DNA from: Candidatus Omnitrophota bacterium
GTDB taxonomy: Bacteria; Omnitrophota; Gorgyraeia; Zapsychrales; JANLHA01
Assembly (NCBI GenBank): GCA_963662715.1
Contig: OY759724.1
Coordinates: 1,170,001 to 1,202,000, forward strand
Reading direction: 5' to 3'
DNA length: 32,000 nt
This document shows positions 1 through 32,000 of this stretch, in pieces. Both the position numbers and the translations under genes were made by a program. The notes beneath the pieces were generated by a model. It was given only the letters and a program-made list of their open reading frames with translations, was not told the origin of the DNA and made no database searches. The stretch's first letter is position 1, and each line of letters starts with the position of its first letter.

Positions 1-3000
1 TTCTTACCAGCTCCCACAACTCCTCATCCGTGATCCCGCCCTCCGGCACATTCAACGCCTTGCGCCAGTACAACGCATTTGTTGGCTCATCATACAGGTA
101 ATCCACAACACTCCGACCTTCCGGCAGCACCAGCTGATGCGTCGGAATCCAGATATACCGACTCGCACTGCTCCGCTCATCAAACGTGAACCGCACCGAT
201 GACTGCAGCTGCAGCCCCAGCTCTTCCCTGCGGTCTTCTCCGAAACCTCTTTCTTTCAACCCGGCATCCGTATAGGTCTTCAGGCCCGGGAACGCGAACG
301 TCCAGCCCTTGTACCACCAATCCAGCGGCTTGACGTCCATCCCCAGGATATGCGGCATGATAAAATGCGTGAACTGATCGCCCGGCTGCCTGGCGATGAT
401 ATACGCCCCGAACTGGATCGGTTTGGCAAATCCTTTCACCTTGCGGCTGAACACCTCTTCGATCTCATTGAGCCGGTGCGGCCCGTTCCACGGCCGCGGC
501 GTTACCCCGCCCTCTTCGATCGGCGAAGAAGTTTCTTCCAACGGCCTTAAGTCTCTGATCAAATCAAATTCGGCTAAATACCGCAACTCCTGGTCAGTCA
601 AACGCTGTTGAGAAGAAGCGTTACGGACTTTACGAATCAAATCCTGCAGCTCAGGATTTTGCTCCCCGGTGAAAACATAAGGCACAAACCCGAAATGTTT
701 AATGTAGAACACAGCCGCCCCGGCTTGCAGGGCATCGTCAGCAAACTCTTTATGAGCTGTTTCTCCTCCGAATTGTGAATTTGAAATAACAACGCCCTCA
801 ACATCAGGATATAAAATCCGCACCGCATTCAATCTCTGTTCGAATATCTTCCTGGAGAAATAATGCCTGAACCTCGGGATGATCTTATATCCGATTGTGA
901 TCTTATCATCCAGCAATGAATGGAACGCTCCATGACCGATCATGAGCTGCTTCTCCAGCAAGAAACCTTCCGCGCAGTTCGTCAGATCATCAGTGAACCA
1001 CATGATCTGCTGAATGCCAAAATCATGAGTCGCCACACAGCACGTTCGGGTCCCTTTGGCGCTGAATCCTCCGATCCAGAATTTCTGGAGTTTGAAATAA
1101 TCTATGAACTGTTTCAGGTAGGCCTGTCTTTGCTGTTCGGAAGCAACCAAGCGAACGTTCGGGAGAGATAAGAATGCTTCTAAATCGGCTTTGACGACCT
1201 CCGGGCTCTTGTCGTCATTGACCGGGGAGCTGCTGACACTATCGTCACGGCGGGTCGCGTCTGCTGACTGATCTTTAATGATCCGGACAGTCTGGTCAAA
1301 AACAAGCTCATAGACCGGGTCAAAGCTGTGGTCCAGGTACCGGTTATAAACTGTGAGGACTTTTTCCCTCCGGGCAATTGTCACATACGCCTGAGCCGGC
1401 AAATAGCTTCTGACCAACAGCACTTTAACTGTCCATTGTTTAAGTTCTACCTGATGCTCCACCTGCGCCAGCCGCCAGTGTTTCAAATACTTCTCTGGGA
1501 AGACATCATAATATTTCTCATATCCTTCATTGAGGAAAGGCAAACACAATTGCGTCTCCCATCTTTCCAAATGCTTGCTGACCAAGCCCGTTTGCGCATC
1601 TCTGTGTCTGTACCAGCGGGCAAGCATCCTCGTCCATGTCAACAGGGTTTCCCAGAGCCGTGTGCCGATACGATTCCGGAAGACAATGATTTCATTTTGT
1701 CCGGCTTCTGGCGCGGAAGACCGGGCATGCATTTGGACTTTTACAGCCTGCTGCCGACCTATCGGGGAAGAAGTTTTATTCTGCTCTTTTCGGTCTTCAT
1801 CCGAACTCTTTAAAACTTGTTTCTGTGCCGCGTGATCATGCGTCGTCAAAAGCTTCTGTGAGTTGGGCCATAAGGCCATAAGACCCAGGATGCCGCCGAT
1901 GACGTAGGAAACAACATCCCATTTATCCGGAGTTGAAGTGATGCCCCACCACTCCAGGACGACAGAAAGAGCAACCATCCAGAAAAGCGTTGTCTTGGCA
2001 AGCCCGCTCTTTCTTTCCACAATTCTTCTTACAAGGACATCGGCATGGCTGGAAATGCGTGTCGTGACAAAACGTTTGAACCTGGCGGCGACAGTGTGCT
2101 CATCCAGCATGTTCGCGAAACTTCTCACTAACTTCAAGAGGATAGGTGTCAAGAGGACAAAAAGCGGAACGGAAACATAATCAGTGTAATGGTCGCGGAT
2201 CAACACGGCCAGCGGAGTCCCGACCTTGACGACTGTTTCCCGGAGAATATCATTATAAATATAACTCGAAAGCGAAAGCAGGGTTGATATAACAGCCGGT
2301 CTGTAATAAACAGATTCCTTAATAAATATTTTGTGTTTCAACCCATCCTCTACCGTCTTGGCGATATAGAACAGACTCATCGCGAAGATGACGCCGAATT
2401 CGCCCATCTGCAGCACAAATCCGGCCAGAAGCCCCATGATAAACAATCCTCTCGCCGGACTCACCGGGGTTTTAGGTTGAGACGAAGACTCCCCGGATTC
2501 CGGCTCTAACCTGTCTAAATAGATTATCGCCAGGGCGCCCCCGACAGCAATTATCATATAAATACCGAATAAGTAGAGAGCCTGGCCGAGATGAGATAAG
2601 ACCGGAGCAAGCGTCGGATTGATGAACGCAAAACTCGTTGCCACGAATCCCGGCATAAGCAGGCCCAGGACGGCGATAATAGAAAAGACCGTAATCTGCC
2701 GGATTTTCCGGAAAGGCTTCCTGGCGGCGGAAGCCGACGTTTCAGCAAAGGATATGCTTGCCACATCCTGCTGCTGAGCGATCCGCTGGAGAAGCTCAAC
2801 GTTAAGAATACGGTATTGTTCCTGAGAACTAAGAGCGAAGAAAGCCGGATGCAGGTAAATCGTCCTGCGCCCGACGTCAGTTCTTGCCGCATACAGCCCG
2901 TCGCCCAAAAGATCCGATCGCGCCGTTACAGTCAAGGAGAAGAAGCCGTAATCTTCAAAATCAGCCATGCCTGCGGTTTGATCCGGCGGGCCATGGGCGT

Positions 3001-6000
3001 CCTTGTGCAGTTTCACCAACGTTGCTTTTATCGTCTCAAGCCAATCTTTCCGGAAGCAGGAAGACACATCGTAAAGCTCCACCCCTTCAGGGTTCCAAAG
3101 GGCTTTGGCCTGACCGTCAGAATAATCTTCATGAGAAACCCTGCCGCCGGCAGATGCGCCTGAAACAGGTGAAGAAACATCATGGTCTTTCCCTTGCTGA
3201 TCGCCATCCCTCAGAAGCTGGGCGCGCCAGTAATGCAGGCCCATATCCCGTAACGATGTCCTCTGACGCGTTTCGTGATCAAGCACCGCTCTTAAAATAT
3301 CCTTCGGTGTCTTTTGAGGTTTTAGATAGAGAGCATTCAAATCATCCTTCTGCCCCATCTCAATGACGAGTTTATACGGACGTGTCTTCACTTCATACGG
3401 CAGCAGCAGATTCATTTCATCCACGTTGCGGGAAACATCCTTGGAATCATCGTACACATTCAGATCCGGTTGAATACGGACGAATCTCATTTTGACCAGC
3501 ACACCTTGTTTTTCCGCTTCATCCAGAACGCCCTGAACCAGCAGGAAGGCTTCTGTTTCCCTCCTCAAGGCATCGTACATATCTTCTCCCTCCTGCACTT
3601 TCATGCGGGTATCGGCAAAAGCGATAAACACAACGGCATTTGGGGCGAGTACAGACGGCAAATAATTAATATATTGCTGCACGGCTTCCTTAAATGATTT
3701 CTCTTTCAGGAAGAACGGTTTAATAAGCGTGACAAGCTGGGCCCGGAAGCCTTTCCCGATCATTTCACTCAAATCATCTTTCAGCAGAATATTAACCGGA
3801 GCCTCAGCATCCAATGTCTCGGCAGATACATGGACGCCTAACCGCTGCAGCTCATCCCGGTGATGTTCGGGGACAACATCTTCTTTATACCATTCCTGAG
3901 CTAATTCCGTGCCGATGACCGTCGAGCGCGCACGGACGTCCATTCTTTGCAGGGCCCTTCTCACCCGGAGCGGAACAGTGCCGTAACCGGTTCCGATATC
4001 GAGCGCGGTAAAACCACGCTCTGTTTCCGAACGGCCGTAAGCCTTTTTCATCACGGCATCGAAATACGTATCTTCACTCAAAACCGGAACCGCGGCATAG
4101 GCCTGCCGCTCCAGATGCCGCACAAAAACATACGGAAGCTCAAGCAGCTGGTTCATCTGCTGCAGTCCCACAAACGCTTTCCGTCTGTTTGAACTCTTAA
4201 CTTTATTGAAAAGATATTTGAGGATGGCTCCACGGACAAAGATGTAAATAACCGCAAACATGCCGCCCGTGCTTAAGACTTCACCGAACAATGTCCATGC
4301 GGGGATAGAGCTGACAAACTCGGCCAACACCGCGCCCAGCTGGTCAAAACTGAGATGAACAAAACCAGGGTAAGTCAGCCCCGTGAAAATAAACGCGGCA
4401 ATGCCTCCCAGCACCATGACCCCGAAAGCGGAGTCACGGCGGTCAAACCCCTGGAGCTGCAGAGCGATATAACCGGCTGACGCCGCAACCGACAGGCTTA
4501 CTTTGATCAATAAAGCTTTATAAGCCGACACCATGGACATCAAGGCTGTCACGAGCGGACTGAGCCATGCCCCGTGCACCAGCCAAATGTTCAGGAAGAC
4601 CCCGCCTATAATCAACCCTGCCAAAAGGAGTATAAACGGTTTCGACCATGACGTACGGAAAGATTTCACAGCAGCGGTTAAGCGGCCGTTAGCGTTAACC
4701 AGGATATGGGAAAGGATAAATGTGCCGGCGAAAAGAACACCTACAGCAGCCGGGGTCGACGGCAGAATAACGCTGCCCAATATCAGGAGCGCAAACGACA
4801 AGAATGTTATCCGTTTATTTGCAGGAGCAAAGGCCTCCCGGCCATGGAAAAGATGCCATAAAAGCTGCAGACTGAGCGACACCCCGATGAACGGCGGAGC
4901 CACGGCCAACGGGATACCAAAAGCCCAGCTTAATATCACACTGCCGCCAACCACAAATAATCCCGTTTCAATAACGGCCGGAGCCAGGACATAACCGACG
5001 AATCTCCCCCAGTGGGCTGTGATGCGTTTGTACACCCGTTCCAGCCTCGGCCAGCGGCCGCCGGTCATAGGAGAACTGCTTGCCGGCCCGTCCGTACCGG
5101 AATCGGAATCTTTTTGCAGTTGTCTTTGAGCCAGCACCATCTCTCTCGTATAAAGTTCTTTAATAACGGCGCTGTAATAATGTTTCAAGAATTGCGGAAC
5201 GTCTGTCAGATAAATAAAATTCGTTGTTTTCGTGACATAAGCCAGAATATTCTCTTCGCTCTTGGAGAACCGCGGCGGCGTCAGATTGTCCAAGCGGTCA
5301 AAGATTTTGATAATTTGTGCTATTTGGTTTTCTACCCTGTGCCCGCGGATGATTCTGCTCAAGAAGTCTTCGTCATCCTCATGAGATCTCTGTGTCAGGA
5401 TAAGAACGGTCCGGGTAATCATCCGCACGGTCTCTCGGTCTGCAAAGGCTCTCAGCCGCTTCTGTGTATCGGAAAGAAGGCGCAAAACATTGCCGCCGGC
5501 GTCTGCGTGTTCTTCAACAACATCATGCAGGAGAGTGGCCGCGATAATCACTTCAGCCGGAACACGGTTCTGCAACAAATATCTGAACAACTTCCTGTTT
5601 TGTGAAATAGCCAAGGCAATGCGGATCGGATGGGTCAAGTACGGCTCCCCGCGTTCACGCTGCATACCGTGATGGACAACATAAGCAATCCGGTAAACTT
5701 CATCAAGCAGGGCGGCATTAAACGAAATATCATACCGGTTAAGATTCTGTTTAATATCAGAGAACGTCATATCGAACCACATACGGCTGTATTCCACATT
5801 AGAATATTCGTACAGGTGAATGTTGACCGAGGGGATGCCCTGCTCCATAAACGGCGTCGTGCTGCGGAACAAGGATTCCATTTCCGGGAAGAACCGGAAC
5901 CATTTCCCGGCGGTGGTTAACAATAAAGCGCCGTCCCGCATCCAGTTAAGCATATTATTGGCAATAATGGCGGTCTGAATGGGCTTGGCCACTTCTTGCT

Positions 6001-27000: not shown

Positions 27001-30000
27001 GTGAGGATGTCTGATCCTTAGACGCCTCCGCCCCCAGAGAGCGGACGGCCTCTTTCACATCCAACGTCATATCACTTCCGGCCAGATCGCGGATATCGGC
27101 TGCGCTTAATGTCTCACCCTGAATAATCCTTGACCGGTAGAGTGTCATCCAGCGGCGATGAACGGTCTTATCATTAAATGTAAAACCGAACTTCAGGTAG
27201 AAAACCACGGCACCTGAATCTAATGCATAGTCATTATCAATCTGTGACCGCATCAGATGAACCTGCTTCACGTCAAAATGACTGTGGATGCTCTTAATCA
27301 GGGCAGCAAACATGTCTTTGCTCTTTTGGCCTTCATGCCGGAATTCATCAAACAAGCGGTAGACAAGATGAGCGCCGTTTCTGTCCGTGATGACCGTGCC
27401 GTAGGCCAGGACCTGATCTTTTTCAACAACAGCAAGATAATAACCGCTGTCAATCCCCAAACGAGCCAGGAAGACAACCCGCACCCCATCCATAATTGGG
27501 CCGGCATAAACCTCATATTCATTCACATCGTCTGCCTGTCCTCCGCCGATCCAGACATCTTTTGCTTCAAAGGCTTCCTGCAGCCAGGCGGCATATAAAT
27601 GAGCTTCCTGCAATGTTGCTCTAAAAAGTCGTGTGGTTTCGGTCAGCTGTCTTACTTGCGGATAAAGGAGGTGTCCCGCACGAACCGGGGAACTGGACGG
27701 CGTTCTGCCGGATTCGGAATCCGGAGTCTTCATCGGAATAATAATGTCAAACCGGGCTCCCAGGATCTTCCCTGTCTGGCCTTTAATGTTCCGTGCTGTA
27801 ATCGTGCCGTCAAAACATTCCTCAATGATCTTACGGCTCAGGTATAAGCCTAACCCGTGGGCTTCGTCTTCTGCGAAACGCCGGCTGAACCATTCCTTGA
27901 AAATCAGGTTGATCAGGTCTTCTTCGCCGGCGAACGTGGCCCTTGCCTTGTTCCAGACATTCAGTTCAACGGCCTTGCTTCTGAGAATATCCGGCTGGAA
28001 TCCCTGTCCGTTATCCCTGAAGCTGATTTTTAAATAACCGTCTTCATAGCCCATGTCCATTTTCAGCCGGACTTTTAAGAAACCGATCCCGGCATGACTG
28101 TAAGCATTGCTGATCAAATTCTTCAGCACATAGAAGAGCCCGTCCTTATAAACCGGCATAAACACCTGCGGCGTCCCGGGATGAATGACCACCTCGATAC
28201 CTCCGGTCCGCATCCAGGTCCGCCCATGGAAATCATCCAATGCCAATGTCTCCAAAAGAATACCGTTACGGACGATATCGATTCTCCTGGCGAATTCTTC
28301 AATGCTTCGAGCAAAATTCTTCTTAACCAACGCCCATGTGTCCTGATGGTCCGCTATCTCTGCGAGGTTGATGCCCTGTTGCTTTCTGTAATCCTCAATT
28401 AAGTACTCCAACCCTTCACACATTTTCTGGATACTTTTAGCTTTTATCTCTGCCTGCGGTTTTTTCAGCAAGGCCGAGAAAGCCGCAAAAATAGCGTCAA
28501 TTCTCCTGTACAGGTCCAGATAGATCCTGACCAGGGCGAGGTTGTCCTCTTGTCCTTCATAATACATATCCAGAACCTGCAGGTTGCCTAATACGGCAAA
28601 CAGCAATGAACGTAAGTCATGCGTCAAGATGCCGAAGGACAGTAAAGCTCTTTGCTGAATATTAATACCCAATGACTGTCCGGTACGGACGGCCCGTTCT
28701 ATCTGATCTTTCTTAAACAGCAATTTATAATGATCCGGCTGATCTCTTCTCAGGACCCCTCTTCTGACCAGAAGATCGAGGGCCATGTTCAGAGCTCGGG
28801 TGCTCTTGATATCCAAGAGGCCCGGGGCTCCCTGAGTTGCGGCCAAATAGATAACCGGCGTCAGCTGACCATCCTGGGCAAAGGCGTAAAGTCCGCGTGT
28901 TTCCAGAATAGTTCTTAACACTTCTTCCTCGGCATGATCTTTCCAGGCTTCCACCGGAGAACTGGCCTTTTGAACCGTTAAGACTTCGGCGTTTAATTTC
29001 GTTGAAATGTTCATGGAAGCAGAAAATCCTAGGCTTTCCAGAGCAGGAATCGCCTCTCTTGAATTCTGATAATTGTGAATCACGACGGCATCCCGATTTA
29101 AGACCGGGTTAAGGCTCTTCATGTGTTCAAGATATTCCGCCTGCTTAAGATGTTTAAGGCCCATGAAGCTCACGATGAAATCAATCTGTTCCGGAGCGAA
29201 GTAATAAGGCAAGTTTTCTGCGACATCCAGAATAAACGTAATCGACGGGTGGAGGTTCTGCCACTTGACGGCCTGGCATTCATCCCCAAAGCCGAACAAT
29301 TGAATCCTCCCGAGATCTCCTTCTTCAAGCGTTCCCTGCCTGACCTGTTCTTCCAAATCTTTGGCTATTGTGTTTACGGCCACGCCTTCCCCTGTTCCCC
29401 AGCAAACATAAGTGACCTTTCTGTCCGGCACGGCGCTTCTCTTCACCCTGCGGACCCTCTCAACGATCATCCGTACGATATCGATACCAAATTCTCTGTT
29501 GATATCCACCAGCCTTGTGTCCGTAAATATCGACCTTCTGACTTCGGTAAAGCCGTCAAGCAGACCGGTCTGGCTGTTCAAATAAACACGGCCGTTATAG
29601 AAATAATCAATGTCTTTAATCTTATCAACAGGAAGCGTGGTCAGCAGTCTCGGTCCGGCCGGGAAGAAAGTTTCTTTGATCGACATCTCTTCTGATACGG
29701 ATCTGATAACACTGCCCGGCGCCATTTTGCGTATCGGGGAGGAACTGGTCTTGGGGCCGGATGACTCTGTCGTTGTTGGGCGCTCTTTGTTTTGCGATGT
29801 TCCGGCCCGTCCGCCGATATACTGGCCGATAATCGCTAAAGATTTCTCTATTTGCCCCCGGCCCCGTTCGACAACCTCATAAGCTCTTTGTCCTAACGCA
29901 TCCGCCAGATCATCATTTTCAAATACCCGGATCAGTTCACGCCCTAACTCCGAGGTTTTCTTCAATTGAATGATCGCATCGTGAGAGATAAAATCTCCCA

Positions 30001-32000
30001 TCATATCTTCAAAGTTTTCTGTATATGGACCGACAATGACAGGTTTGGCAAAATTGGCAGGTTCCAGAGGATTGTGTCCGCCTAACGTATACCAGAAACT
30101 TCCGGCAACAACGACGACACTGGCAATGGAATAGAGGGATTTTAATTCACCATACGTATCCAGCATAATCACCTGAGGAGGTCCGCGAGGATCTATGGAA
30201 CTCAAAGCAGATTTGCGTATCGCCGGAATACCCTGCAACTCCAAATACCGCATAAATCCGTCAACATCAGCAAGATTGCGCGGAGCAAATATCAGTTTCA
30301 CATTTTCCAATCCCGGACGGATAATCAATTCTTTATAGGCCTTGACCAATTCAACTTCTTCACGTTCATGAACACTTCCGTAAACAAGAATCTTATCTGT
30401 TCGGTTTAATCCCAAATGTTTTAATAACTCTGTTCTTTCATCTTCCGATAAAGTAATCAGGGATGTGTCATATTTAATATTTCCAATAATGGAAATCCTG
30501 TCGTCTCCGACCCCTCTCTGCTGCAGGAATTCTCTTGCAAGTTCAGAAACGGCACCGAAATGATCCGTCAATTCCACGAGTTTACGGCCGTAGAACCGAT
30601 ATTTTACCCGAAGGACTTCACCAAGAGACTGGTCGTCCGACAAGAAAGAGTTGATCACGACCGTAGCCGCCCCATATTTTTCTTTGGCAATTCTAACGAA
30701 TTTAGGCCCTAACCCTATAAACGATTCCTGGACGACGACATGAACCGGCCTGATAACTCTGAACAGCCGATTAACAGCGGACTTCATATCAAAGACATAC
30801 GGAAGAACAACGATATCCTTATCAGCTAAACTCGCCATGTCTTTGACATTTTGGGTGCTGTTTGTCAGCAGGACAATACGATAATCCGGATAAGTCTGCT
30901 GCAGAGCTTCTATCAGGGATATGGAATTAATAACTTCCCCGACACCGCAGGCGGAGACCACGATGGATTTCCTGTCGTCTTTGAATGTGGCCTTAATGTC
31001 TCGCGGGATATACCCAAAGCCTGCCGGAATATCGCTCCAGTGACGATGCTGCTTGATAAGATGTCGCACAAAATTCATGCTGTACAACGGGGCAAAAAGC
31101 AGGTCTTTAACGAAGAAGGTCAGCCTTGAGTCTCTTTCAAGCCATTTGGAACCCGTAACCGATACAATAACAGCCGCACATGCACTTCTGCCGGATTTCT
31201 TAATCATCTTGTAGGAATGATACATTCCCAAACGCAGGAGGGCATAGAAAGATTTTCTTTCTTGTCCGTTATCCTTCCCCTGCTTGACCGGGCTGGAAAC
31301 CTTGTTTTCCGGAGACTTAACGCGATAGTTGTACATTTCCGGAACATCATCCTGATCAATCCTTTCAAAAGAGTATCCTTCAGCCAGCATGGAGCCCAAC
31401 AAGACACCTTGTTCACCCCGGTCTTCCAGTAATTCGTTTTCAACGTAAAAGGTCACCTCTCCGTCTATGGAGAAATTGAGATAGATATTACCGAACGCTC
31501 TGTTAACATTGCCGTACGCATCCCACATCGGCAATGTCTCGATATCAAATTTCCGGCGAATAGTGTCCGCCTGCCCTTTGGTCCACTCGACAGCCCATTC
31601 CCAGACATTCTCATCCGGGATGCCGGTCTCTTCCTGGACAGCCTTCCAAATCCTGGACTGCAAGTCGTTAATAAGCGTGACGGTCTCCATTCCGTCATAA
31701 ACGTAGCGGATCACCAGATCTTTGTTCTGTAAGGTCCGGATGACATTGACGAACTCTTCCTGATACTTGGCCGTGACACGGGCTATCCTTTGCCGGCCGG
31801 CTTCTCTGTCAATATCCGCTTCGGACGAATACACCGCTTTGAAGGCATCATGATGCCAAACATGGAAACTCAGGTTGACCTGCAAATCAAACGGCAGGGT
31901 CGCCAGCCGTTCGGCCGCCTGCTGGGCCCGGCGGTCGTTCACCCTCCAGCCGTGTGTCACCAGCCAGACATCAAAGCCCCGTTTATGAATGGCATCCACG
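1..32000 (-). CDS. Internal fragment of one giant ORF (10,666 complete codons, plus-strand 31999 down to 2; start and stop both outside the window) encoding a modular multi-enzyme, membrane-spanning megaprotein
   Basis: I checked the whole frame whose codons occupy plus-strand positions 3k+2..3k+4: positions 29,700 down to 1 were translated 60-nt line by line, and 32,000-29,700 was translated in bulk plus scanned codon by codon. No TAA/TAG/TGA occurs anywhere (no tta/cta/tca at those plus positions). The product is protein-like throughout and carries many canonical enzyme motifs (listed below). None of the 16 minus-strand ORFs in the supplied track is in this frame (their low coordinates are 1 or 0 mod 3), which is consistent with this frame never closing inside the window. 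Random expectation for 10,666 stop-free codons is about (61/64)^10666, effectively zero. Confidence 0.95.
14..498 (-). repeat. Dispersed direct repeat, copy 1 (partner 19670-20154); the module continues beyond the window edge
   Basis: Same alignment as above. Preceded by ETSSPIEEGGVTPRPWNGPH (SSPI at 518-529), parallel to GSSPLEERETSPRPWNGPH in copy 2. Confidence 0.9.
530..1219 (-). other. Uncharacterised module (230 aa)
   Basis: NDDKSPEVVKADLEAFLSLPNVRLVASEQQRQAYLKQFIDYFKLQKFWIGGFSAKGTRTCCVATHDFGIQQIMWFTDDLTNCAEGFLLEKQLMIGHGAFHSLLDD... lies between SSPV (1220) and SSPI (518). Confidence 0.4.
1232..1759 (-). other. Uncharacterised module (176 aa)
   Basis: GRQQAVKVQMHARSSAPEAGQNEIIVFRNRIGTRLWETLLTWTRMLARWYRHRDAQTGLVSKHLERWETQLCLPFLNEGYEKYYDVFPEKYLKHWRLAQ... 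lies between SSPI (1760) and SSPV (1220). Confidence 0.4.
1865..2695 (-). other. Second polytopic membrane block (about 6 predicted TM helices) in module 1772-3163, after a soluble N-terminal region of about 150 aa
   Basis: ITVFSIIAVLGLLMPGFVATSFAF, ALYLFGIYMIIAVGGALAIIYL, GLFIMGLLAGFVLQMGEFGVIFAMSLFYI, VSVPLFVLLTPILLKLV, TLFWMVALSVVLEWWGI, VVSYVIGGILGLMALWP. Confidence 0.65.
3176..4150 (-). other. Class I SAM-dependent methyltransferase-like domain fused C-terminally to the membrane block (same module, 3176-5065)
   Basis: Motif I is GFTALDIGTGYGTVPLRV (about 3975-4015), followed by VIGTELAQEW and NAVVFIAFAD. Confidence 0.5.
4208..5002 (-). other. Polytopic membrane block (about 8 predicted TM helices)
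   Basis: Successive hydrophobic stretches of about 20 aa: FVGYVLAPAVIETGLFVVGGSVILSWAF, IPLAVAPPFIGVSLSLQLLW, ITFLSFALLILGSVILP, AAVGVLFAGTFILSHILV, PFILLLAGLIIGGVFLNIWLV, LSPLVTALMSMVSAYKALLI, FGVMVLGGIAAFIFTGL, GGMFAVIYIFVRGAILKYLF. Confidence 0.7.
5078..6565 (-). other. Two-domain module: N-terminal Rossmann/CheR-like methyltransferase-like region (weak) plus C-terminal RelA/SpoT-type HD ((p)ppGpp hydrolase-like) domain
   Basis: HD part at 5282-5674: VVHHGMQRERGEPYLTHPIRIALAI, AATLLHDVVEEHAD and IIKIFDRLDNL match the SpoT/Mesh1 hydrolase motifs (H-x-G-x-x-R-x-x-G-x-P-Y-x-x-H-P, LLHD-x-x-E-D, DRL-x-N). No synthetase domain follows. The N-terminal part (IRILSFGG... VVNDNAEMLNIAQRGFYPRHV) is only loosely CheR-like. 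Confidence 0.65.
6578..7702 (-). other. Module (375 aa) containing two tandem domains of about 110 aa with a shared Y-x-x-F-R-Q-F-[DE] ending
   Basis: ...GKVIHLQDYESFRQFDRQ (YESFRQF = 7361-7381) and ...RQAVNLREYKPFRQFETN (YKPFRQF = 7028-7048) lie 333 nt apart. Each is preceded by beta-strand-like alternating sequence. Confidence 0.45.
7832..7903 (-). other. Single predicted transmembrane helix followed by a strongly basic stop-transfer cluster
   Basis: ISPVVFVGLFSAATAAAAAGILIL is followed by RRIIIRRARR (down to about 7800). It lies at the C-terminal end of module 7715-8947. Confidence 0.6.
8804..8869 (-). other. Twin-arginine (Tat) signal-peptide-like segment located internally, about 25 aa after an SSPV junction
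   Basis: M-SRRYFFR-FGFSAGLGALLISS. S-R-R-x-F-F-R fits the Tat consensus [ST]-R-R-x-F-L-K and is followed by an uncharged h-region of about 13 residues (Met codon 8867-8869). Confidence 0.45.
8960..10969 (-). other. Large uncharacterised module (670 aa)
   Basis: There is a Rossmann-like stretch (GKPVIATIGYSRAAVWQLQKML ... VDCVIVHVHTFETWSPESFAALLRDRLAEEDSILILSH), then long helical/coiled segments and an acidic Pro/Glu-rich stretch (PETTEVVPTVEPAQMPEQDREGQPED). No family recognised. Confidence 0.4.
10982..11698 (-). other. Uncharacterised module (239 aa)
   Basis: SEEDNVRGLISDAELFVRAAVPGTIEQVEGKYLRVIKAGADMIIFPTRKDIIHGTWLRDRQIGIGAVNLGRPV... lies between SSPV (11699) and SSPV (10970). No motif recognised. 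Confidence 0.4.
11711..13354 (-). other. Heptosyltransferase-like (GT9, GT-B fold) module
   Basis: N-terminal VKRVLILSPTKRDYGVELIESGVMNILAVHPNIEEVTVVTHPN. C-terminal signature LEGLNKLINSADVVVTPDTYTMHAATAMGKIVVTPWG (12323-12415), which matches the ADP-heptose:LPS heptosyltransferase motif L-I-x-x-A-D-L-V-V-T-x-D-[ST]-G-x-M-H-L-A-A-A-x-G as I recall it. Confidence 0.55.
13910..14476 (-). other. Uncharacterised module (189 aa) with an LYHGT motif (possible ADP-ribosyltransferase/Tpt1-like fold, very tentative)
   Basis: VSEEKDLVLYHGTLAGLVRTWLAGDG (LYHGT = 14438-14452). The H-G-T is reminiscent of H-Y-E class ART/KptA enzymes. No further motif verified. Confidence 0.2.
14573..17326 (-). other. 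Large module (918 aa) with a GT-A-fold glycosyltransferase core (GT2/GT81-like) and a helical C-terminal extension of about 450 aa
   Basis: DLDVVVTVPFYSEGDTIDNVLEAI (Asp 16841-16843). VRGKGFSLHLGLGVMEDLGRKNGLFATYDADLRSIQPGWVRDHLWPL with a DxD motif (D-A-D = 15977-15985). This resembles glucosyl-3-phosphoglycerate-synthase-type GT-A enzymes from memory. Confidence 0.5.
17339..18175 (-). other. HD-domain metal-dependent phosphohydrolase module
   Basis: SLQIAAMGHDIERYL (H...HD), SHPLNSARIVDKLLEQLG, AFLIRHHDAGVH and LRVLSDADSAAFF (distal Asp), in the order typical of the HD superfamily. Confidence 0.6.
18458..18994 (-). other. Uncharacterised module (179 aa)
   Basis: ERRIRKADVLQELVAEKAIRTAKDLAYYGDAIGLSAKAQSIIAAYIRLKKEGINVTVPRLAQLSALTVAEVSEVSEG... 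lies between SSPV (18995) and SSPI (18446). Apparently helical. No motif recognised. Confidence 0.4.
19007..20173 (-). other. Uncharacterised module of about 389 aa; its N-terminal part of about 165 aa is duplicated at the start of the window
   Basis: EERETSPRPWNGPHRLNEIEEVFSRKVKGFAKSIQFGAYIIAKKKGDQFTHFIMPHILGMDVKPLDWWYKGWTFAFPGLKTYTDAGLKERGFGEERREELGLQLQSSVRFTFDERSSASRYIWIPTHQLVLPEGRSVVDYLYDEPTNALYWRKALNVPEGGITDEELW... No family recognised. Confidence 0.5.
19670..20154 (-). repeat. Dispersed direct repeat, copy 2 (partner 14-498)
   Basis: About 485 nt aligns with 14-498 at a constant offset of 19,656 nt (6,552 codons, in frame). I counted roughly 15 mismatches by eye, clustered around 20026-20046, for about 97 percent identity. 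The + strand track ORFs 350-550 and 20006-20257 begin with the same MRHDKMREL... shadow. Confidence 0.9.
20186..20419 (-). other. Low-complexity basic/acidic linker segment (78 aa)
   Basis: KKVERKVEPIHPIVKSENNRRPQQDQKSSRKKTKAGSEEKLTDTVTISEEARRLLEKEEGQTSAESQGQIERGSEESG lies between SSPV (20420) and SSPL (20174). Confidence 0.6.
20432..20920 (-). repeat. In-frame tandem repeat, 96-bp (32-aa) unit, 5 copies decaying toward the C-terminal side
   Basis: Unit is SSPVGASTMMSSTPLTQEEYTAWKQAQAAEEV. SSPV blocks at 20813, 20717 and 20621 are 96 nt apart. The first copy starts with degenerate QLPV (20909-20920). The last two copies are 33 and 34 aa and diverged (SSNV at 20522-20533). Confidence 0.9.
21311..21865 (-). 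other. Uncharacterised module (185 aa)
   Basis: EAKWDTEILMDQLRTVDSLSEVLPVAWGEQITAEDIIRVYKEIKGTEIENTLIVRLLWHIVNATVGVG... lies between SSPI (21866) and SSPV (21299). No motif recognised. Confidence 0.4.
21915..22480 (-). repeat. In-frame tandem repeat, 213-bp (71-aa) unit, about 2.65 copies
   Basis: Unit is SSPVAGAGTNNERVKGQGTYTVAAVLLKGETGDAVAAGRSSGVREERSELSERIAGNRTKTTDLLSEAGEV. SSPV blocks at 22451, 22238 and 22025 are exactly 213 nt apart. The two full copies differ at about 3 nt. The + strand track ORFs 22005-22193 and 22218-22406 are near-identical shadows. Confidence 0.9.
22463..23170 (-). other. GHKL/HATPase_c-like ATP-binding module (anti-sigma-factor/serine-kinase-like, tentative)
   Basis: FRYINQNIAQHGSGFG (N-box-like), IHVIVLDQGKGFIN (D-x-G-x-G) and GGNFGHGLTLTVENAENISIET (G-box-like). 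No H-box precedes it. Confidence 0.4.
23183..24148 (-). repeat. Copy B of the duplicated module of about 322 aa, function unknown (paralogue of 26021-26995)
   Basis: Starts AKGEEDEDQLSLFGPTKGQIRKNIRSRVMAFGPVRDEIVTAVIEKFDQLQAAYKARLGKDLRMA and ends HSRMDLPEGPS-SSPI. Offset to copy A is 2,847 nt (949 codons, in frame). Confidence 0.85.
24161..25315 (-). other. Alpha/beta-hydrolase (serine hydrolase) module
   Basis: RPVILFIHGNGRGAFN (oxyanion HG region, His 24881-24883) and the nucleophile elbow GGVVTHSNGGTIF (Ser codon 24689-24691). A later EGENPHANVFYE could supply the catalytic His. Confidence 0.6.
25328..26008 (-). other. Class I methyltransferase-like module (tentative)
   Basis: RIGIDVAASSNRNPSQGLIDGGLKRMFMLDVARQ, VYGDATDLSAEFNGGTLGVVVHNDSLLYV and SYFVLQADGIIIVKA resemble Rossmann-type methyltransferase motifs I, II and post-II. 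About 227 aa. Confidence 0.35.
26021..26995 (-). repeat. Copy A of a duplicated module of about 325 aa, function unknown (paralogue of 23183-24148)
   Basis: Starts AKGEEDEDQLSLFGPTKGQIRKDIRSRVMAFGPVRDEIVTAVIEKFDQLQAAYKARLGKDLRMA and ends HSRMDRPEIDDDPA-SSPV. By-eye protein identity to copy B is roughly 75-80 percent. The + strand track ORFs 26385-26672 and 23538-23825 are near-identical antisense shadows of the two copies. Confidence 0.85.
27008..27682 (-). other. GNAT-like N-acetyltransferase module (tentative)
   Basis: About 225 aa. YLAVVEKDQVLAYGTVITDRNGAHLVYRLFDEFRHEGQKSKDMFAALIKSI ... GAVVFYLKFGFTF resembles the GNAT core and its C-terminal FY-x-K-x-GF motif. Match is from memory only. 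Confidence 0.4.
27695..28951 (-). other. Histidine kinase module (HisKA H-box plus HATPase_c) with a soluble N-terminal region of about 100 aa; no transmembrane sensor and no receiver domain
   Basis: H-box FGILTHDLRSLLFAVLGNL (His codon 28619-28621). N-box GLFYVLKNLISNAYSH. D-box KISFRDNGQGFQPD. G-box EAHGLGLYLSRKIIEECFDGTITARN. All in canonical order. Confidence 0.85.
28964..29731 (-). other. Class I SAM-dependent methyltransferase-like module
   Basis: VTYVCWGTGEGVAVNTIAKDL (glycine-rich motif I-like), then ITFILDVAENLPYYFAPEQIDFIVSFMGLKHL and LNRDAVVIHNY. About 256 aa between two SSP motifs. Confidence 0.45.
29744..31285 (-). other. Kdo transferase-like module (3-deoxy-D-manno-octulosonic acid transferase, GT30, WaaA/KdtA-like)
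   Basis: Contains KSIVVSACGVGEVINSISLIEALQQTYPDYRIVLL (SACGV at about 30941-30958), ILVYGSVHEREEVELVKAY, KLIFAPRNLADVDGF, VIMLDTYGELKSLYSIASVVVVAGSF and GGHNPLEPANFAKPVIVGPYTENFEDM (GGHNPLE = 30062-30082). Order and spacing match the GT30 family as I remember it. Bounded by SSPV (31286) and SSPI (29732). Confidence 0.8.
31298..32000 (-). other. Module truncated by the window edge, function unknown
   Basis: Translation begins VDAIHKRGFDVWLVTHGWRVNDRRAQQAAERLATLPFDLQVNLSFHVWHHDAF and ends at ENKV-SSPV (31286-31297). I recognise no family motif. Confidence 0.4.

What the first reader, a model, noticed from the sequence alone, without database searches (positions are those of the whole stretch)
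1..32000. The entire window is the interior of a single gene longer than 32 kb that the ORF track does not show
A 10,666-codon stop-free minus-strand frame runs from the last base to the first. I saw no intergenic gap, start context, RBS or terminator. The gene therefore exceeds 32 kb. The visible part alone is about 1.2 MDa at roughly 110 Da per residue, which places it among the largest prokaryotic genes. The giant bacterial proteins I know of are repetitive Ig/cadherin-like adhesins, RTX proteins or NRPS/PKS assembly lines. This one is largely non-repetitive and built from unrelated enzyme families plus membrane segments. Giant multi-domain ORFs have, to my recollection, been reported from uncultivated lineages such as Omnitrophota; that needs checking. 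I cannot assign taxonomy from this window.
Basis: seen in the sequence. Interest (0 to 1): 0.95.

Follow-up and report, generated by a model that had tools for sequence, protein, structure and literature searches.

The report
Giant bacterial gene punctuated by SSPV
The whole window is the inside of one giant bacterial gene (probably Omnitrophota) that strings together about 30 complete proteins, each preceded by the same four-residue tag (Ser-Ser-Pro-Val/Ile), which may mark where the 1.2-MDa chain is cut into working proteins.

Summary
The minus strand (window 31999 to 2) has 10,666 sense codons and no stop codon. Base composition by codon position is uniform, and internal paralogues show purifying selection (dN/dS about 0.3). 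The visible part weighs 1.21 MDa.

The protein is mostly non-repetitive (13% in repeats). It carries a WaaA Kdo-transferase, a histidine-kinase ATPase, a GT9 domain, a SpoT-type HD hydrolase, an alpha/beta-hydrolase, methyltransferase-like modules and about 17 hydrophobic segments. Four of the five named nearest relatives are Omnitrophota. Giant multi-enzyme genes are already published for that phylum, so the gene is a new member of a known kind.

The peptide SSP[V/I/L/M] occurs 40 times (0.4 expected). It is conserved as amino acids, not as DNA, and lies in hydrophilic, predicted-disordered linkers, never inside a recognised domain. The stretches between motifs match whole free-standing proteins, and some begin with their own Tat-like export signal. 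Duplications start exactly at the motif. Two Omnitrophota fragments share the motif.

My best reading is an operon fused into one polyprotein, with the motif as a recognition site, probably for a protease. Cleavage is inferred, not shown, and no protease was found in the window.

The parts
2..31999 (-). Stop-free reading frame of 10,666 codons, open at both ends; interior of a giant gene
31286..31297 (-). junction motif SSPV (aa 235)
29732..29743 (-). junction motif SSPI (aa 753)
28952..28963 (-). junction motif SSPV (aa 1013)
27683..27694 (-). junction motif SSPV (aa 1436)
26996..27007 (-). junction motif SSPI (aa 1665); first residues of duplicated module m05
26009..26020 (-). junction motif SSPV (aa 1994)
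25316..25327 (-). junction motif SSPV (aa 2225), directly followed by a Tat-like signal
24149..24160 (-). junction motif SSPI (aa 2614); first residues of duplicated module m08
23171..23182 (-). junction motif SSPI (aa 2940)
22451..22462 (-). junction motif SSPV (aa 3180), 71-aa tandem unit 1
22238..22249 (-). junction motif SSPV (aa 3251), 71-aa tandem unit 2
22025..22036 (-). junction motif SSPV (aa 3322), 71-aa tandem unit 3 (partial)
21866..21877 (-). junction motif SSPI (aa 3375)
21299..21310 (-). junction motif SSPV (aa 3564)
20813..20824 (-). junction motif SSPV (aa 3726), 32-aa tandem unit
20717..20728 (-). junction motif SSPV (aa 3758), 32-aa tandem unit
20621..20632 (-). junction motif SSPV (aa 3790), 32-aa tandem unit
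20588..20599 (-). motif SSPL (aa 3801), inside a degenerate 32-aa unit
20489..20500 (-). motif SSPL (aa 3834), inside a degenerate 32-aa unit
20420..20431 (-). junction motif SSPV (aa 3857)
20174..20185 (-). junction motif SSPL (aa 3939); first residues of duplicated module m21
18995..19006 (-). junction motif SSPV (aa 4332)
18446..18457 (-). junction motif SSPI (aa 4515)
18176..18187 (-). junction motif SSPV (aa 4605)
17327..17338 (-). junction motif SSPI (aa 4888)
14561..14572 (-). junction motif SSPL (aa 5810)
14477..14488 (-). junction motif SSPI (aa 5838)
13898..13909 (-). junction motif SSPV (aa 6031)
13787..13798 (-). junction motif SSPV (aa 6068)
13355..13366 (-). junction motif SSPV (aa 6212)
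11699..11710 (-). junction motif SSPV (aa 6764)
10970..10981 (-). junction motif SSPV (aa 7007)
8948..8959 (-). junction motif SSPV (aa 7681)
7703..7714 (-). junction motif SSPV (aa 8096)
6566..6577 (-). junction motif SSPV (aa 8475)
5066..5077 (-). junction motif SSPM (aa 8975); the first TM helix of module m36 starts about 25-29 aa later
3164..3175 (-). junction motif SSPV (aa 9609)
1760..1771 (-). junction motif SSPI (aa 10077)
1220..1231 (-). junction motif SSPV (aa 10257)
518..529 (-). junction motif SSPI (aa 10491); first residues of duplicated module m40
29744..31297 (-). Module m01 (aa 235-752): complete WaaA-type (GT30) Kdo transferase; family match spans aa 302-728
   Evidence: NCBIfam NF004388 profile 14-421 of 425, E 1.4e-53; Pfam PF04413; PDB 2xci/4bfc
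27695..28963 (-). Module m03 (aa 1013-1435): histidine-kinase core; HATPase_c at aa 1286-1423, ending 13 aa before the next motif
27008..27694 (-). Module m04 (aa 1436-1664): unnamed family; residues 49-229 align to the whole of stand-alone 185-aa P0004, so both end together
26021..27007 (-). Module m05 (aa 1665-1993): dark module with a helical-repeat C-terminal half; paralogue of m08; homologue in Omnitrophota P0025 bracketed by SSPL...SSPL
25328..26020 (-). Module m06 (aa 1994-2224): methyltransferase-like (relatives are named SAM-dependent methyltransferase by their source)
24161..25327 (-). Module m07 (aa 2225-2613): alpha/beta-hydrolase with triad S2437/D2540/H2583; same length as, and collinear with, stand-alone 389-aa P0002
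25238..25315 (-). Tat-like signal peptide at the start of m07: TITRREFIIALATMMALARNPEKAFA
23183..24160 (-). Module m08 (aa 2614-2939): second copy of the dark module (81% aa, 85% nt identity to m05)
21878..22462 (-). Tandem array of 71-aa units (213 nt x 2.7), one motif per unit
20432..20920 (-). Tandem array of about 32-aa units (96 nt x 3.7 plus decayed copies), one motif per unit
19007..20185 (-). Module m21 (aa 3939-4331): dark module, paralogue of m40 (93% aa, 95.6% nt over 176 aa)
17339..18187 (-). Module m24 (aa 4605-4887): weak HD / DUF4202 match at aa 4686-4857
14573..17338 (-). Module m25 (aa 4888-5809): largest module (922 aa); no detectable relatives
11711..13366 (-). Module m30 (aa 6212-6763): GT9 heptosyltransferase-like
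   Evidence: PF01075 27 bits vs cut-off 22; RfaF weak
7715..8959 (-). Module m33 (aa 7681-8095): Tat-like leader (SRRYFFRFGFSAGLGALLISS, aa 7712-7736), about 295 aa, then a TM anchor (aa 8032-8061) followed by RRIIIRRARR
5078..6577 (-). Module m35 (aa 8475-8974): C-terminal half is a SpoT/RelA-type HD (p)ppGpp-hydrolase domain (aa ~8763-8908)
   Evidence: TIGR00691 E 3e-8; PDB 6s2t/7ohg; PF01966 weak
3176..5077 (-). Module m36 (aa 8975-9608): about 8 TM helices (aa 9000-9264), then a methyltransferase-like soluble part; N-terminal 120 aa is 38% identical to P0046
1772..3175 (-). Module m37 (aa 9609-10076): soluble head, then about 6 TM helices (aa 9765-10045)
2..529 (-). Module m40 (aa 10491-10666, cut by the window edge): second copy of m21

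Best explanation
The window is an internal piece of a giant gene (over 32 kb) of the Omnitrophota multi-enzyme kind.

Shown here: the polypeptide is a string of about 30 protein-sized modules, mostly 180-670 aa. Each module is preceded by the tetrapeptide S-S-P-[V/I/L/M], usually with S, V, T or A just before it. The motif sits in a short hydrophilic linker that is predicted to be disordered. Where homologues exist, a motif-to-motif module equals one complete free-standing protein, including that protein's own N-terminal export signal or membrane anchor. The module is also the unit of duplication.

Inferred: the gene is an operon fused into one reading frame, that is, a bacterial polyprotein. 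The motif is recognised as a peptide by a dedicated factor, most likely an endopeptidase encoded outside the window. Peptidase domains of the C39 and S8 families have been reported near the ends of such genes. Cutting at the motif would release cytoplasmic enzymes (WaaA and GT9 glycosyltransferases, a kinase core, methyltransferases, a ppGpp-hydrolase-like HD domain), an esterase/lipase-type hydrolase exported through its own Tat signal, membrane proteins, and multi-copy short peptides from the tandem units.

My probabilities: giant modular gene with real punctuation, about 0.9. Omnitrophota origin, about 0.75. Motif actually cleaved, about 0.45-0.5.
For: - ORF reality: 0 stops in 10,666 codons, uniform composition by codon position, paralogue dN/dS 0.28 and 0.34.
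- Motif frequency: SSP[VILM] occurs 40 times against 0.4 expected (at most 4 in 500 shuffles). Every SSP in the protein is followed by V, I, L or M. SSP and SSPV are the most over-represented 3-mer and 4-mer in an unbiased scan.
- Peptide-level conservation: synonymous codons vary freely (TCN and AGY for Ser, all Val and Ile codons).
- Linker context: the flanking 15 residues on each side are hydrophilic and depleted in aromatic and aliphatic residues. Both motifs flanking m07 fall in pLDDT<50 segments at the edges of a pLDDT>90 core. The same holds for the ends of m05.
- Motifs avoid domains: none of the 40 falls inside the 2,278 residues covered by external family or homologue matches (8.5 expected, P about 7e-5). 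Domains usually end 1-31 aa before the next motif.
- Module equals whole protein: m07 (389 aa) aligns 58-380 to residues 59-386 of stand-alone 389-aa P0002. m04 ends at the same residue as stand-alone 185-aa P0004. WaaA profile positions 14-421 of 425 fit inside m01.
- Export signals at module starts: the only two Tat-like segments lie 7 and 32 aa after a motif. Free-standing m07 homologues start with lipoprotein, Sec or Tat signals, and multi-module relatives keep an internal signal before the same domain.
- Unit of duplication: paralogous modules begin at the first base of the motif at DNA level and end 6 aa before the next motif. Each tandem unit carries one motif in phase.
- Conservation in relatives: in Omnitrophota fragment P0025 the same dark module (30% identity) is bracketed by SSPL...SSPL, with the same 329-aa length. 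P0052 has 3 motifs in 830 aa.
- Taxonomy and class: named relatives are Ca. Omnitrophota or Ca. Zapsychrus exili. The literature describes the same cargo types and leaves cleavage points unknown.
Against: - No peptidase domain or catalytic motif was found in the 10,666 visible residues.
- There is no experimental evidence of processing. The Tat-like signals were identified by pattern and hydropathy only.
- Modules that contain TM helices have even helix counts (2, 8, 6). An uncleaved chain could therefore also keep all linkers on one side of the membrane. Only m07's lone signal is awkward for the uncleaved model.
- The motif was not found in most distant relatives (7 in 48,195 aa). It could not be checked in the published Omnitrophota giants such as V. 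archaeovorus.
- The lineage is very thinly sampled, with no hits in the genome, metagenome or viral contig scans.
- The source contig was not recovered, so taxonomy is indirect and assembly integrity is untested.
Confidence: 0.5

Rival explanations
1. The chain is never cut and works as an MDa membrane-anchored scaffold of enzymes (beads on a string). SSP[VILM] is a conserved linker element recognised for some other purpose: O-glycosylation or phosphorylation of the serines, a docking site for a chaperone or secretion factor, or a proline hinge.
For: - The literature treats these proteins as single membrane-anchored polypeptides.
- TM-containing modules have even helix counts, so an uncleaved topology is self-consistent for them.
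- No protease was seen in the window.
- The motifs lie in disordered linkers, where modification sites also occur.
Against: - Plain linkers are biased in composition, not strict in motif. Here SSP is invariant, the next residue is always aliphatic (40 of 40), and the motif survives at 30% identity.
- A Tat-type signal with an RR motif, a short 13-residue hydrophobic region and AFA cannot serve as an N-terminal export signal while buried 2,229 residues into a chain. If it did act as a membrane anchor, every module up to aa ~7,700 would sit outside the cell, including the nucleotide-sugar-dependent GT9-like module and the HD module.
- Tandem short units with one motif each resemble multi-copy peptide precursors.
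Confidence: 0.33
2. The motif is mainly a DNA-level feature: a short conserved sequence (TCN-TCN-CCG-GTN) that acts as microhomology for in-frame recombination. It would allow whole modules to be duplicated, deleted or inserted like cassettes. The peptide would be a by-product.
For: Both large duplications begin within 0-6 nt of the first base of the motif, and one ends just before the next motif. Tandem units carry the motif in phase.
Against: - Codons at the motif vary freely between TCN and AGY serine codons and among all Val and Ile codons. Only about 6-7 of the 12 bases are fixed, which is no more than the peptide itself requires.
- CCG for Pro is also the gene-wide preferred codon.
- Selection for intact modules would by itself make surviving duplications start at junctions.
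Confidence: 0.07
3. The modules are made separately from one long mRNA by internal translation initiation, or the junctions are programmed translational pause sites for co-translational folding.
For: None specific. This was considered because the modules are protein-sized.
Against: - There are no stop codons at all.
- In-frame SD+ATG/GTG sites are not enriched within 40 codons after motifs (4 of 28 = 14% vs 15% expected). The first Met lies 3-208 residues after the motif, with no pattern.
- Codon adaptiveness shows no dip around the motif (all bins lie between -0.229 and -0.276 against a random mean of -0.250, SD 0.020).
- No structured RNA was found.
Confidence: 0.03
4. The long ORF is an artefact: a chimeric assembly, a polishing error or a non-coding stretch that happens to be open.
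For: The source contig could not be found in any collection, so read-level support cannot be examined.
Against: - Zero stops in 10,666 codons, against 260-612 in the other frames.
- Uniform composition by codon position and purifying selection on paralogues.
- Real enzyme domains with intact catalytic residues.
- One punctuation motif runs through the whole window, which a chimera of unrelated genes would not show.
Confidence: 0.03

Closest known systems
Omnitrophota giant genes of the multi-enzyme type ('Archaeovorins', West-Roberts et al. 2023, bioRxiv 10.1101/2023.11.21.568195; 'multi-enzyme metabolic cluster' class, Nielsen & Lui 2026, bioRxiv 10.64898/2026.06.07.730766; Seymour et al. 2023, PMC10066038)
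   Same: - A single ORF of tens of kilobases, most of it without recognisable domains.
- Cargo of glycosyltransferases, methyltransferases, histidine-kinase ATPase and HD domains, interspersed with TM helices.
- Poorly conserved between lineages.
- The nearest named relatives are Omnitrophota.
   Different: - Those papers report no junction motif and state that cleavage points are unknown.
- The SecA-DEAD, C39/S8 peptidase, GT5/GT1, dockerin and TSP3 domains they describe were not seen in this window. The gene ends lie outside the window, however.
- The window carries LPS-core-type transferases (WaaA/GT30 and GT9) instead.
Viral polyproteins (for example picornavirus or nidovirus replicase polyproteins)
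   Same: One reading frame encodes many complete proteins of unrelated function, joined by short exposed junctions that carry a recurrent recognition peptide. Membrane-spanning and soluble products are interleaved.
   Different: This is a cellular (bacterial) gene roughly 4-15 times longer than those polyproteins. No cognate protease has been identified and no cleavage has been shown. The SSP[VILM] motif is unrelated to known viral sites. These comparisons rest on my own knowledge and were not tested here.
Motif-directed processing of large bacterial precursors (Mycoplasma hyopneumoniae P97/P102 adhesins at S/T-X-F|X-D/E; lantibiotic leader removal by S8 LanP peptidases at ...A-S-P-R|; IgA-protease autotransporter self-processing at Pro-rich sites)
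   Same: These use short recognition peptides in disordered regions, and some have Pro at the P2 position, as SSP[V/I] would if it were cut after the aliphatic residue. S8 peptidase domains have been reported on Omnitrophota giants.
   Different: Those precursors yield a few fragments of one functional system, not about 30 unrelated enzymes. The resemblance is recalled from the literature and was not tested here.
Repetitive giant adhesins, RTX proteins and NRPS/PKS megasynthases
   Same: Only the size class (proteins in the MDa range).
   Different: There are no Ig/cadherin/RTX repeats and no C-A-T or KS-AT-ACP modules. Only 12.8% of residues are repeated.

Membership tests
Omnitrophota giant ORFs (Seymour 2023; West-Roberts 2023; Nielsen & Lui 2026) | Single ORF longer than 20 kb (Seymour) or protein of at least 10,000 aa (Nielsen & Lui) | tested here: met
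   10,666 codons are open at both ends, so the gene exceeds 31,998 nt and 10,666 aa. Whether it reaches the >30,000 aa set of West-Roberts cannot be told from the window.
Omnitrophota giant ORFs | Encoded in an Omnitrophota genome | tested here: inconclusive
   The source contig was not found. Four of the five named nearest relatives are Ca. Omnitrophota or Ca. Zapsychrus exili, and the only relatives that share the dark module and the motif are Omnitrophota. There are no marker genes in the window.
Omnitrophota giant ORFs | Numerous transmembrane helices | tested here: met
   About 17 hydrophobic segments by Kyte-Doolittle scanning, all within aa 7,700-10,050. No dedicated TM predictor was available.
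Omnitrophota giant ORFs | Divergent SecA-DEAD domain; C39 or S8 peptidase near an end of the protein | tested here: not met
   None was detected in the window by Pfam or NCBIfam. The termini of the gene lie outside the window, so this cannot be decided for the whole gene.
Multi-enzyme class / Archaeovorin-type | Many distinct enzyme families tile the chain with none dominating; glycosyltransferases, methyltransferases, kinase-type ATPase and HD domains; helical (HEAT-like) repeats | tested here: met
   GT30 WaaA, HATPase_c and GT9 score above their cut-offs. SpoT-HD, HD/DUF4202, methyltransferase and alpha/beta-hydrolase are supported by NCBIfam, PDB, homologues or structure. The dark module is predicted as a helical repeat. 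The GT5/GT1 families typical of Archaeovorins were not found.
Polyprotein (one ORF, many mature proteins) | Segments correspond to complete independent proteins | tested here: met
   m07 matches stand-alone P0002 in length and register, m04 shares its C-terminus with stand-alone P0004, and m01 contains a full WaaA profile. This is shown for 3 modules and inferred for the rest.
Polyprotein | Recurrent recognition peptide at the junctions, exposed | tested here: met
Polyprotein | Cognate protease encoded with it | tested here: not met
   No peptidase family or HExxH / GDSGG-type motif was found in the window. It may lie elsewhere in the gene or genome.
Polyprotein | Cleavage products observed | not testable with these tools
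   This needs proteomics, N-terminomics or gels.
Twin-arginine (Tat) signal peptide (module m07 leader) | [ST]-R-R-x-F-[LI] motif, short hydrophobic region, A-x-A site | tested here: met
   T-R-R-E-F-I-I, a hydrophobic region IALATMMALA, and A-F-A. Identified by pattern only, with no dedicated predictor. Homologue P0012 starts with TRRCFLQ.
Twin-arginine (Tat) signal peptide | Located at the N-terminus of the exported protein | tested here: not met
   It lies 2,229 residues into the visible frame, 4 residues after a motif. It would become N-terminal only if the chain is cut there.
Repetitive adhesin / RTX / NRPS-PKS giants | Tandem Ig/cadherin/RTX repeats, or C-A-T / KS-AT-ACP modules | tested here: not met
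   No such Pfam families were found.

The most novel reading that the evidence does not exclude
A free-living or episymbiotic bacterium expresses a large part of a pathway set the way an RNA virus does. One reading frame of more than 1.2 MDa encodes about 30 complete proteins: cytoplasmic enzymes, a Tat-exported hydrolase, polytopic membrane proteins and multi-copy short peptides. These are released by cleavage at a dedicated SSP[V/I] site. If so, this would supply the cleavage points that earlier work on Omnitrophota giant proteins said were missing. It would also explain why cytoplasm-type enzymes in such giants are predicted to lie 'outside' the cell.
Probability: 0.4. Interest if true: 0.9.

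Novelty: new variant of a known kind. Interest (0 to 1): 0.62.

Why it matters
Giant genes of Omnitrophota (up to 147,155 aa) are a recognised puzzle. Nobody knows whether the products act as single MDa chains or are cut up. The authors who described them state that missing cleavage points blocked both their structural analysis and their interpretation. Topology predictions also place glycolytic and other cytoplasm-type enzymes outside the cell.

A sharply defined junction peptide that separates protein-equivalent modules, some with their own export signals, turns that question into concrete tests. Existing proteomes can be searched for termini at SSP[V/I]. Giants can be cut in silico at the motif for structure prediction. 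Junctions can be mutated.

If cleavage is confirmed, this would be a polyprotein expression strategy in a cellular organism at a scale never described. If cleavage is refuted, the motif still marks a specific, conserved recognition element in the linkers of a megadalton enzyme scaffold.

Tried and rejected
- Source contig: an exact 60-mer from the window end is absent from genome contigs, metagenome contigs and viral contigs, so the gene could not be extended.
- Word-index protein searches: aa 1-4887 gave nothing at E<=1e-10 (the threshold was probably too strict). One search of aa 4888-9608 timed out. aa 4888-6763 gave nothing at 1e-3.
- Locus fishing with the shared dark module (alignment A1): nothing in genome, metagenome or viral contigs. 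The motif therefore could not be tested on more relatives or on V. archaeovorus.
- Function of the dark duplicated module: the AF2 model is half confident (a helical repeat). Foldseek returned only designed helical repeats at E>0.05. It is not a recognisable enzyme or protease.
- Largest module m25: no match in Pfam, PDB or by homologue search.
- Protease in the window: no family hit and no HExxH or GDSGG-type motif.
- RNA or DNA signal at the junctions: rejected. Synonymous codons vary, there are no Rfam hits, and there is no rare-codon dip and no SD+start enrichment.
- Internal transcription units: promoter-like and terminator-like sites are at chance level.
- Homologue annotation to name m04 and m06: Pfam on the relatives added little.
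- Literature: no paper in the library combines Omnitrophota with polyprotein, or SSPV with a cleavage site. The Kizina et al. 2022 paper is not in the library.
- Self-BLAST of the whole protein returned only the trivial full-length hit. Module-against-module BLAST was used instead.

Full report
**Observation**

The reverse complement of the window, read from its second base (window 31999 down to 2), gives 10,666 sense codons and no stop codon. The other five frames contain 260-612 stops, and their longest open stretch is 214 codons.

GC content at the three codon positions stays near 0.55/0.38/0.56 in all eleven 1,000-codon bins. Two pairs of internal paralogues have dN/dS of 0.28 and 0.34 in this frame. 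The frame is therefore coding and under purifying selection throughout. The visible polypeptide weighs 1,212,950 Da.

Promoter-like and terminator-like sites are at chance level and no Rfam family matches. The true start and stop, and the integrity of the assembly, cannot be examined, because an exact 60-mer from the window is absent from all three contig collections.

**What the protein contains**

Pfam, NCBIfam and PDB sequence searches recognise only about a fifth of the chain:
- A complete WaaA-type Kdo transferase at aa 302-728 (NCBIfam NF004388, profile positions 14-421 of 425, E 1.4e-53; Pfam PF04413; PDB 2xci).
- A histidine-kinase ATPase domain at aa 1286-1423.
- A GT9 heptosyltransferase-like segment.
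- A SpoT/RelA-type HD hydrolase domain at aa ~8763-8908.
- A weak HD/DUF4202 domain.
- Methyltransferase-like stretches.

One module was modelled with stand-alone homologues. It is a confident alpha/beta-hydrolase with an invariant Ser-Asp-His triad, and it matches esterases, lipases and a membrane phospholipase in the PDB.

Hydrophobic segments are confined to the last quarter. There are a Tat-like leader plus one anchor in aa 7712-8061, about eight helices in aa 9000-9264, and about six in aa 9765-10045.

Only 12.8% of residues lie in repeats: two duplicated modules and two short tandem arrays. No Ig/cadherin, RTX or NRPS/PKS domains are present.

**Taxonomy and the known class**

An exhaustive HMMER search with a 1,200-aa stretch found only 51 relatives among 1.84 billion representatives. 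The best are 32-37% identical and each matches a single module. Of the hits that carry a source name, four of five are Omnitrophota: Ca. Zapsychrus exili and three 'Candidatus Omnitrophota bacterium' partial proteins. Several of these fill their whole short contig, so they are fragments of longer ORFs.

Giant ORFs are well documented in this phylum. Examples are ORFs over 20 kb in most Velamenicoccia genomes (PMC10066038), proteins up to 85,804 aa with 'Archaeovorin' multi-enzyme content (bioRxiv 10.1101/2023.11.21.568195), and proteins up to 147,155 aa with a 'multi-enzyme metabolic cluster' class (bioRxiv 10.64898/2026.06.07.730766). A third group describes the same mix of polysaccharide-biosynthesis enzymes, kinase parts, methylases and TM segments (PMC12419801). 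As a giant gene, this is therefore a new member of a known kind. The Omnitrophota assignment is likely but indirect.

**The punctuation motif**

Reading the translation revealed a recurring tetrapeptide.
- SSP followed by V, I, L or M occurs 40 times (25 V, 10 I, 4 L, 1 M), against 0.4 expected and at most 4 in 500 shuffles. There is no SSP in the protein that is not followed by one of these four residues.
- In an unbiased scan, SSP (40 vs 1.5) and SSPV (25 vs 0.11) are by far the most over-represented 3-mer and 4-mer.
- The residue before the motif is S, V, T or A in 37 of 40 cases. The flanking 15 residues on each side are hydrophilic and poor in aromatic and aliphatic residues.
- At the DNA level the serines use both TCN and AGY codons, and the Val and Ile codons vary freely. 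What is conserved is the peptide, not a nucleotide signal.
- Spacing between motifs is mostly 180-670 residues, the size of ordinary proteins.

**Modules equal proteins**

None of the 40 motifs falls inside the 2,278 residues covered by an external family or homologue match (8.5 expected at random, P about 7e-5). Matched domains typically end 1-31 residues before the next motif.

Where free-standing homologues exist, a motif-to-motif module equals a whole protein:
- Module m07 (389 aa) aligns from residue 58 to 380 with residues 59-386 of the 389-aa stand-alone protein P0002.
- Module m04 ends at the same residue as the 185-aa stand-alone protein P0004.
- The full WaaA profile fits inside m01 with 67- and 25-residue flanks.

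In the AlphaFold model of a construct spanning both junctions of m07, the hydrolase core has pLDDT above 90. Both motifs lie in pLDDT<50 segments at its edges. The motif-bearing ends of module m05 are also below 50.

**Export signals at module starts**

The only two twin-arginine-like segments in the 10,666 residues lie 7 and 32 residues after a motif. The first reads SSPV-TITRREFIIALATMMALARNPEKAFA. It has an [ST]-RR-x-F-I motif, a short hydrophobic region and an A-x-A site.

Free-standing homologues of this hydrolase begin with lipoprotein, Sec or Tat signals. Several unrelated multi-module relatives keep an internal signal just upstream of the same domain, so these leaders are retained by selection.

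Module m33 looks like a self-contained type-I membrane protein: a Tat-like leader, about 295 residues, a C-terminal anchor, then a positively charged tail. Module m36 starts its first helix about 25-29 residues after the motif, preceded by basic residues.

**Unit of evolution**

The two large duplications start at the first base of the motif at DNA level. These are m05/m08 (85% nt identity) and m21/m40 (95.6% nt identity). The m05/m08 pair ends six residues before the next motif.

The 71-aa and roughly 32-aa tandem units each carry one motif in phase.

The only relative of the dark module m05 is the Omnitrophota fragment P0025. At 30% identity it has the same module bracketed by SSPL and SSPL, with the same 329-residue length. 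A second Omnitrophota fragment, P0052, has three motifs in 830 residues.

Most other distant relatives lack the motif (7 in 48,195 residues), and long ones show no comparable punctuation. The feature is therefore specific to one lineage.

**How it most likely works**

Shown: the gene is a chain of complete protein equivalents. They are joined by exposed linkers that carry a strictly conserved peptide, which is kept at 30% identity and respected by duplications.

Inferred: the gene is a fused operon, and the motif is read as a peptide by a dedicated factor. I favour an endopeptidase (probability about 0.45-0.5) for four reasons. A strict four-residue site in otherwise variable linkers is typical of protease recognition. 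Modules keep N-terminal export signals that can only act at a free N-terminus. One such module (m07) has no returning TM helix, so in an uncut chain every module up to aa ~7,700 would lie outside the cell, including the nucleotide-sugar-dependent GT9-like module and an HD module. The tandem short units look like multi-copy peptide precursors.

Peptidase domains of the C39 and S8 families have been reported near the ends of such genes. From my own knowledge, S8 leader peptidases accept Pro at the P2 position. That is a lead, not a test.

The main rival (about 0.33) is an uncut MDa scaffold in which the motif is a modification or docking site. It is helped by two facts: no protease is visible in the window, and the modules that contain TM helices have even helix counts.

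A DNA-level recombination role, internal initiation or pausing, and an assembly artefact are each unlikely.

**Novelty**

Neither paper on giant genes mentions a linker or junction motif. [quoted passage not shown] No paper in the library combines Omnitrophota with polyprotein, or SSPV with a cleavage site.

I rate the finding as a new variant of a known kind. The giant gene itself is no longer surprising. The punctuation and the module-equals-protein architecture appear to be undescribed, and they make the open question of processing directly testable.

**Limitations**

- The lineage is represented only by this window and two short fragments.
- TM and Tat calls rest on hydropathy and patterns.
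- The structure models use shallow alignments.
- Nothing about cleavage is experimental.

Noticed in passing
window 2-31999 (- strand), whole frame: Cysteine is extremely rare: 13 Cys in 10,666 residues (0.12%), roughly ten-fold below a typical bacterial proteome. The Omnitrophota relative P0019 has no Cys in 2,020 aa.
   Followed up: no
proteins P0003, P0021, P0029, P0032, P0034, P0039, P0046, P0049 and P0014-P0017, P0022-P0024, P0030: Distant multi-module relatives end in two recurrent C-terminal tails, '...[F/I/L]xxxNA/SA/AA' and '...QSI/SSI/NSI'. These look like C-terminal sorting or secretion tags. The window contains no C-terminus, so it cannot be checked for them.
   Followed up: no
protein P0019 (Ca. 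Omnitrophota): The 28-residue string NPINFIAAGEDGVSQFGDDQKDLQFAFN occurs twice, once at the very end of the fragment. It may be a different junction or repeat element in another Omnitrophota giant.
   Followed up: no
protein P0008 (2,866 aa, labelled Patescibacteria group, fills its 8.6-kb contig): This is a multi-enzyme fusion (PP2C-like region, phosphoglucomutase-like region, methyltransferase, glucosamine-6-P deaminase). It has looser junction peptides (ASPV, SSPA) and two SSPL. Related punctuation may therefore exist more widely, in weaker form.
   Followed up: partly
window 23183-23182 region: aa 2940-3179 (window 22463-23182, - strand): Module m09 shows GHKL-ATPase-like N, G1 and G2 boxes by eye (NIAQHG ... 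DQGKGF ... GHGLT). No HMM supports this.
   Followed up: no
aa 5838-6030 (window 13910-14488, - strand): Module m27 contains 'LVLYHGT', reminiscent of the histidine motif of ADP-ribosyltransferases. This is by eye only.
   Followed up: no
aa 3822 (window ~20534-20545, - strand): A decayed copy of the 32-aa tandem unit reads SSNV instead of SSPV. It is the only near-miss of the motif noticed, and it sits in the most degenerate repeat copy.
   Followed up: partly
window + strand, e.g. 5012-5605, 29123-29695: Nine antisense ORFs of 150-197 aa lie on the + strand. I took them to be shadows of the long minus-strand frame and did not examine them further.
   Followed up: no
modules m01 (window 29744-31297) and m30 (window 11711-13366): The two best-recognised glycosyltransferases are of LPS inner-core type (WaaA Kdo transferase and a GT9 heptosyltransferase-like domain). 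This points to building the cell's own envelope glycolipid rather than to the prey cell-wall degradation proposed for such giants.
   Followed up: partly
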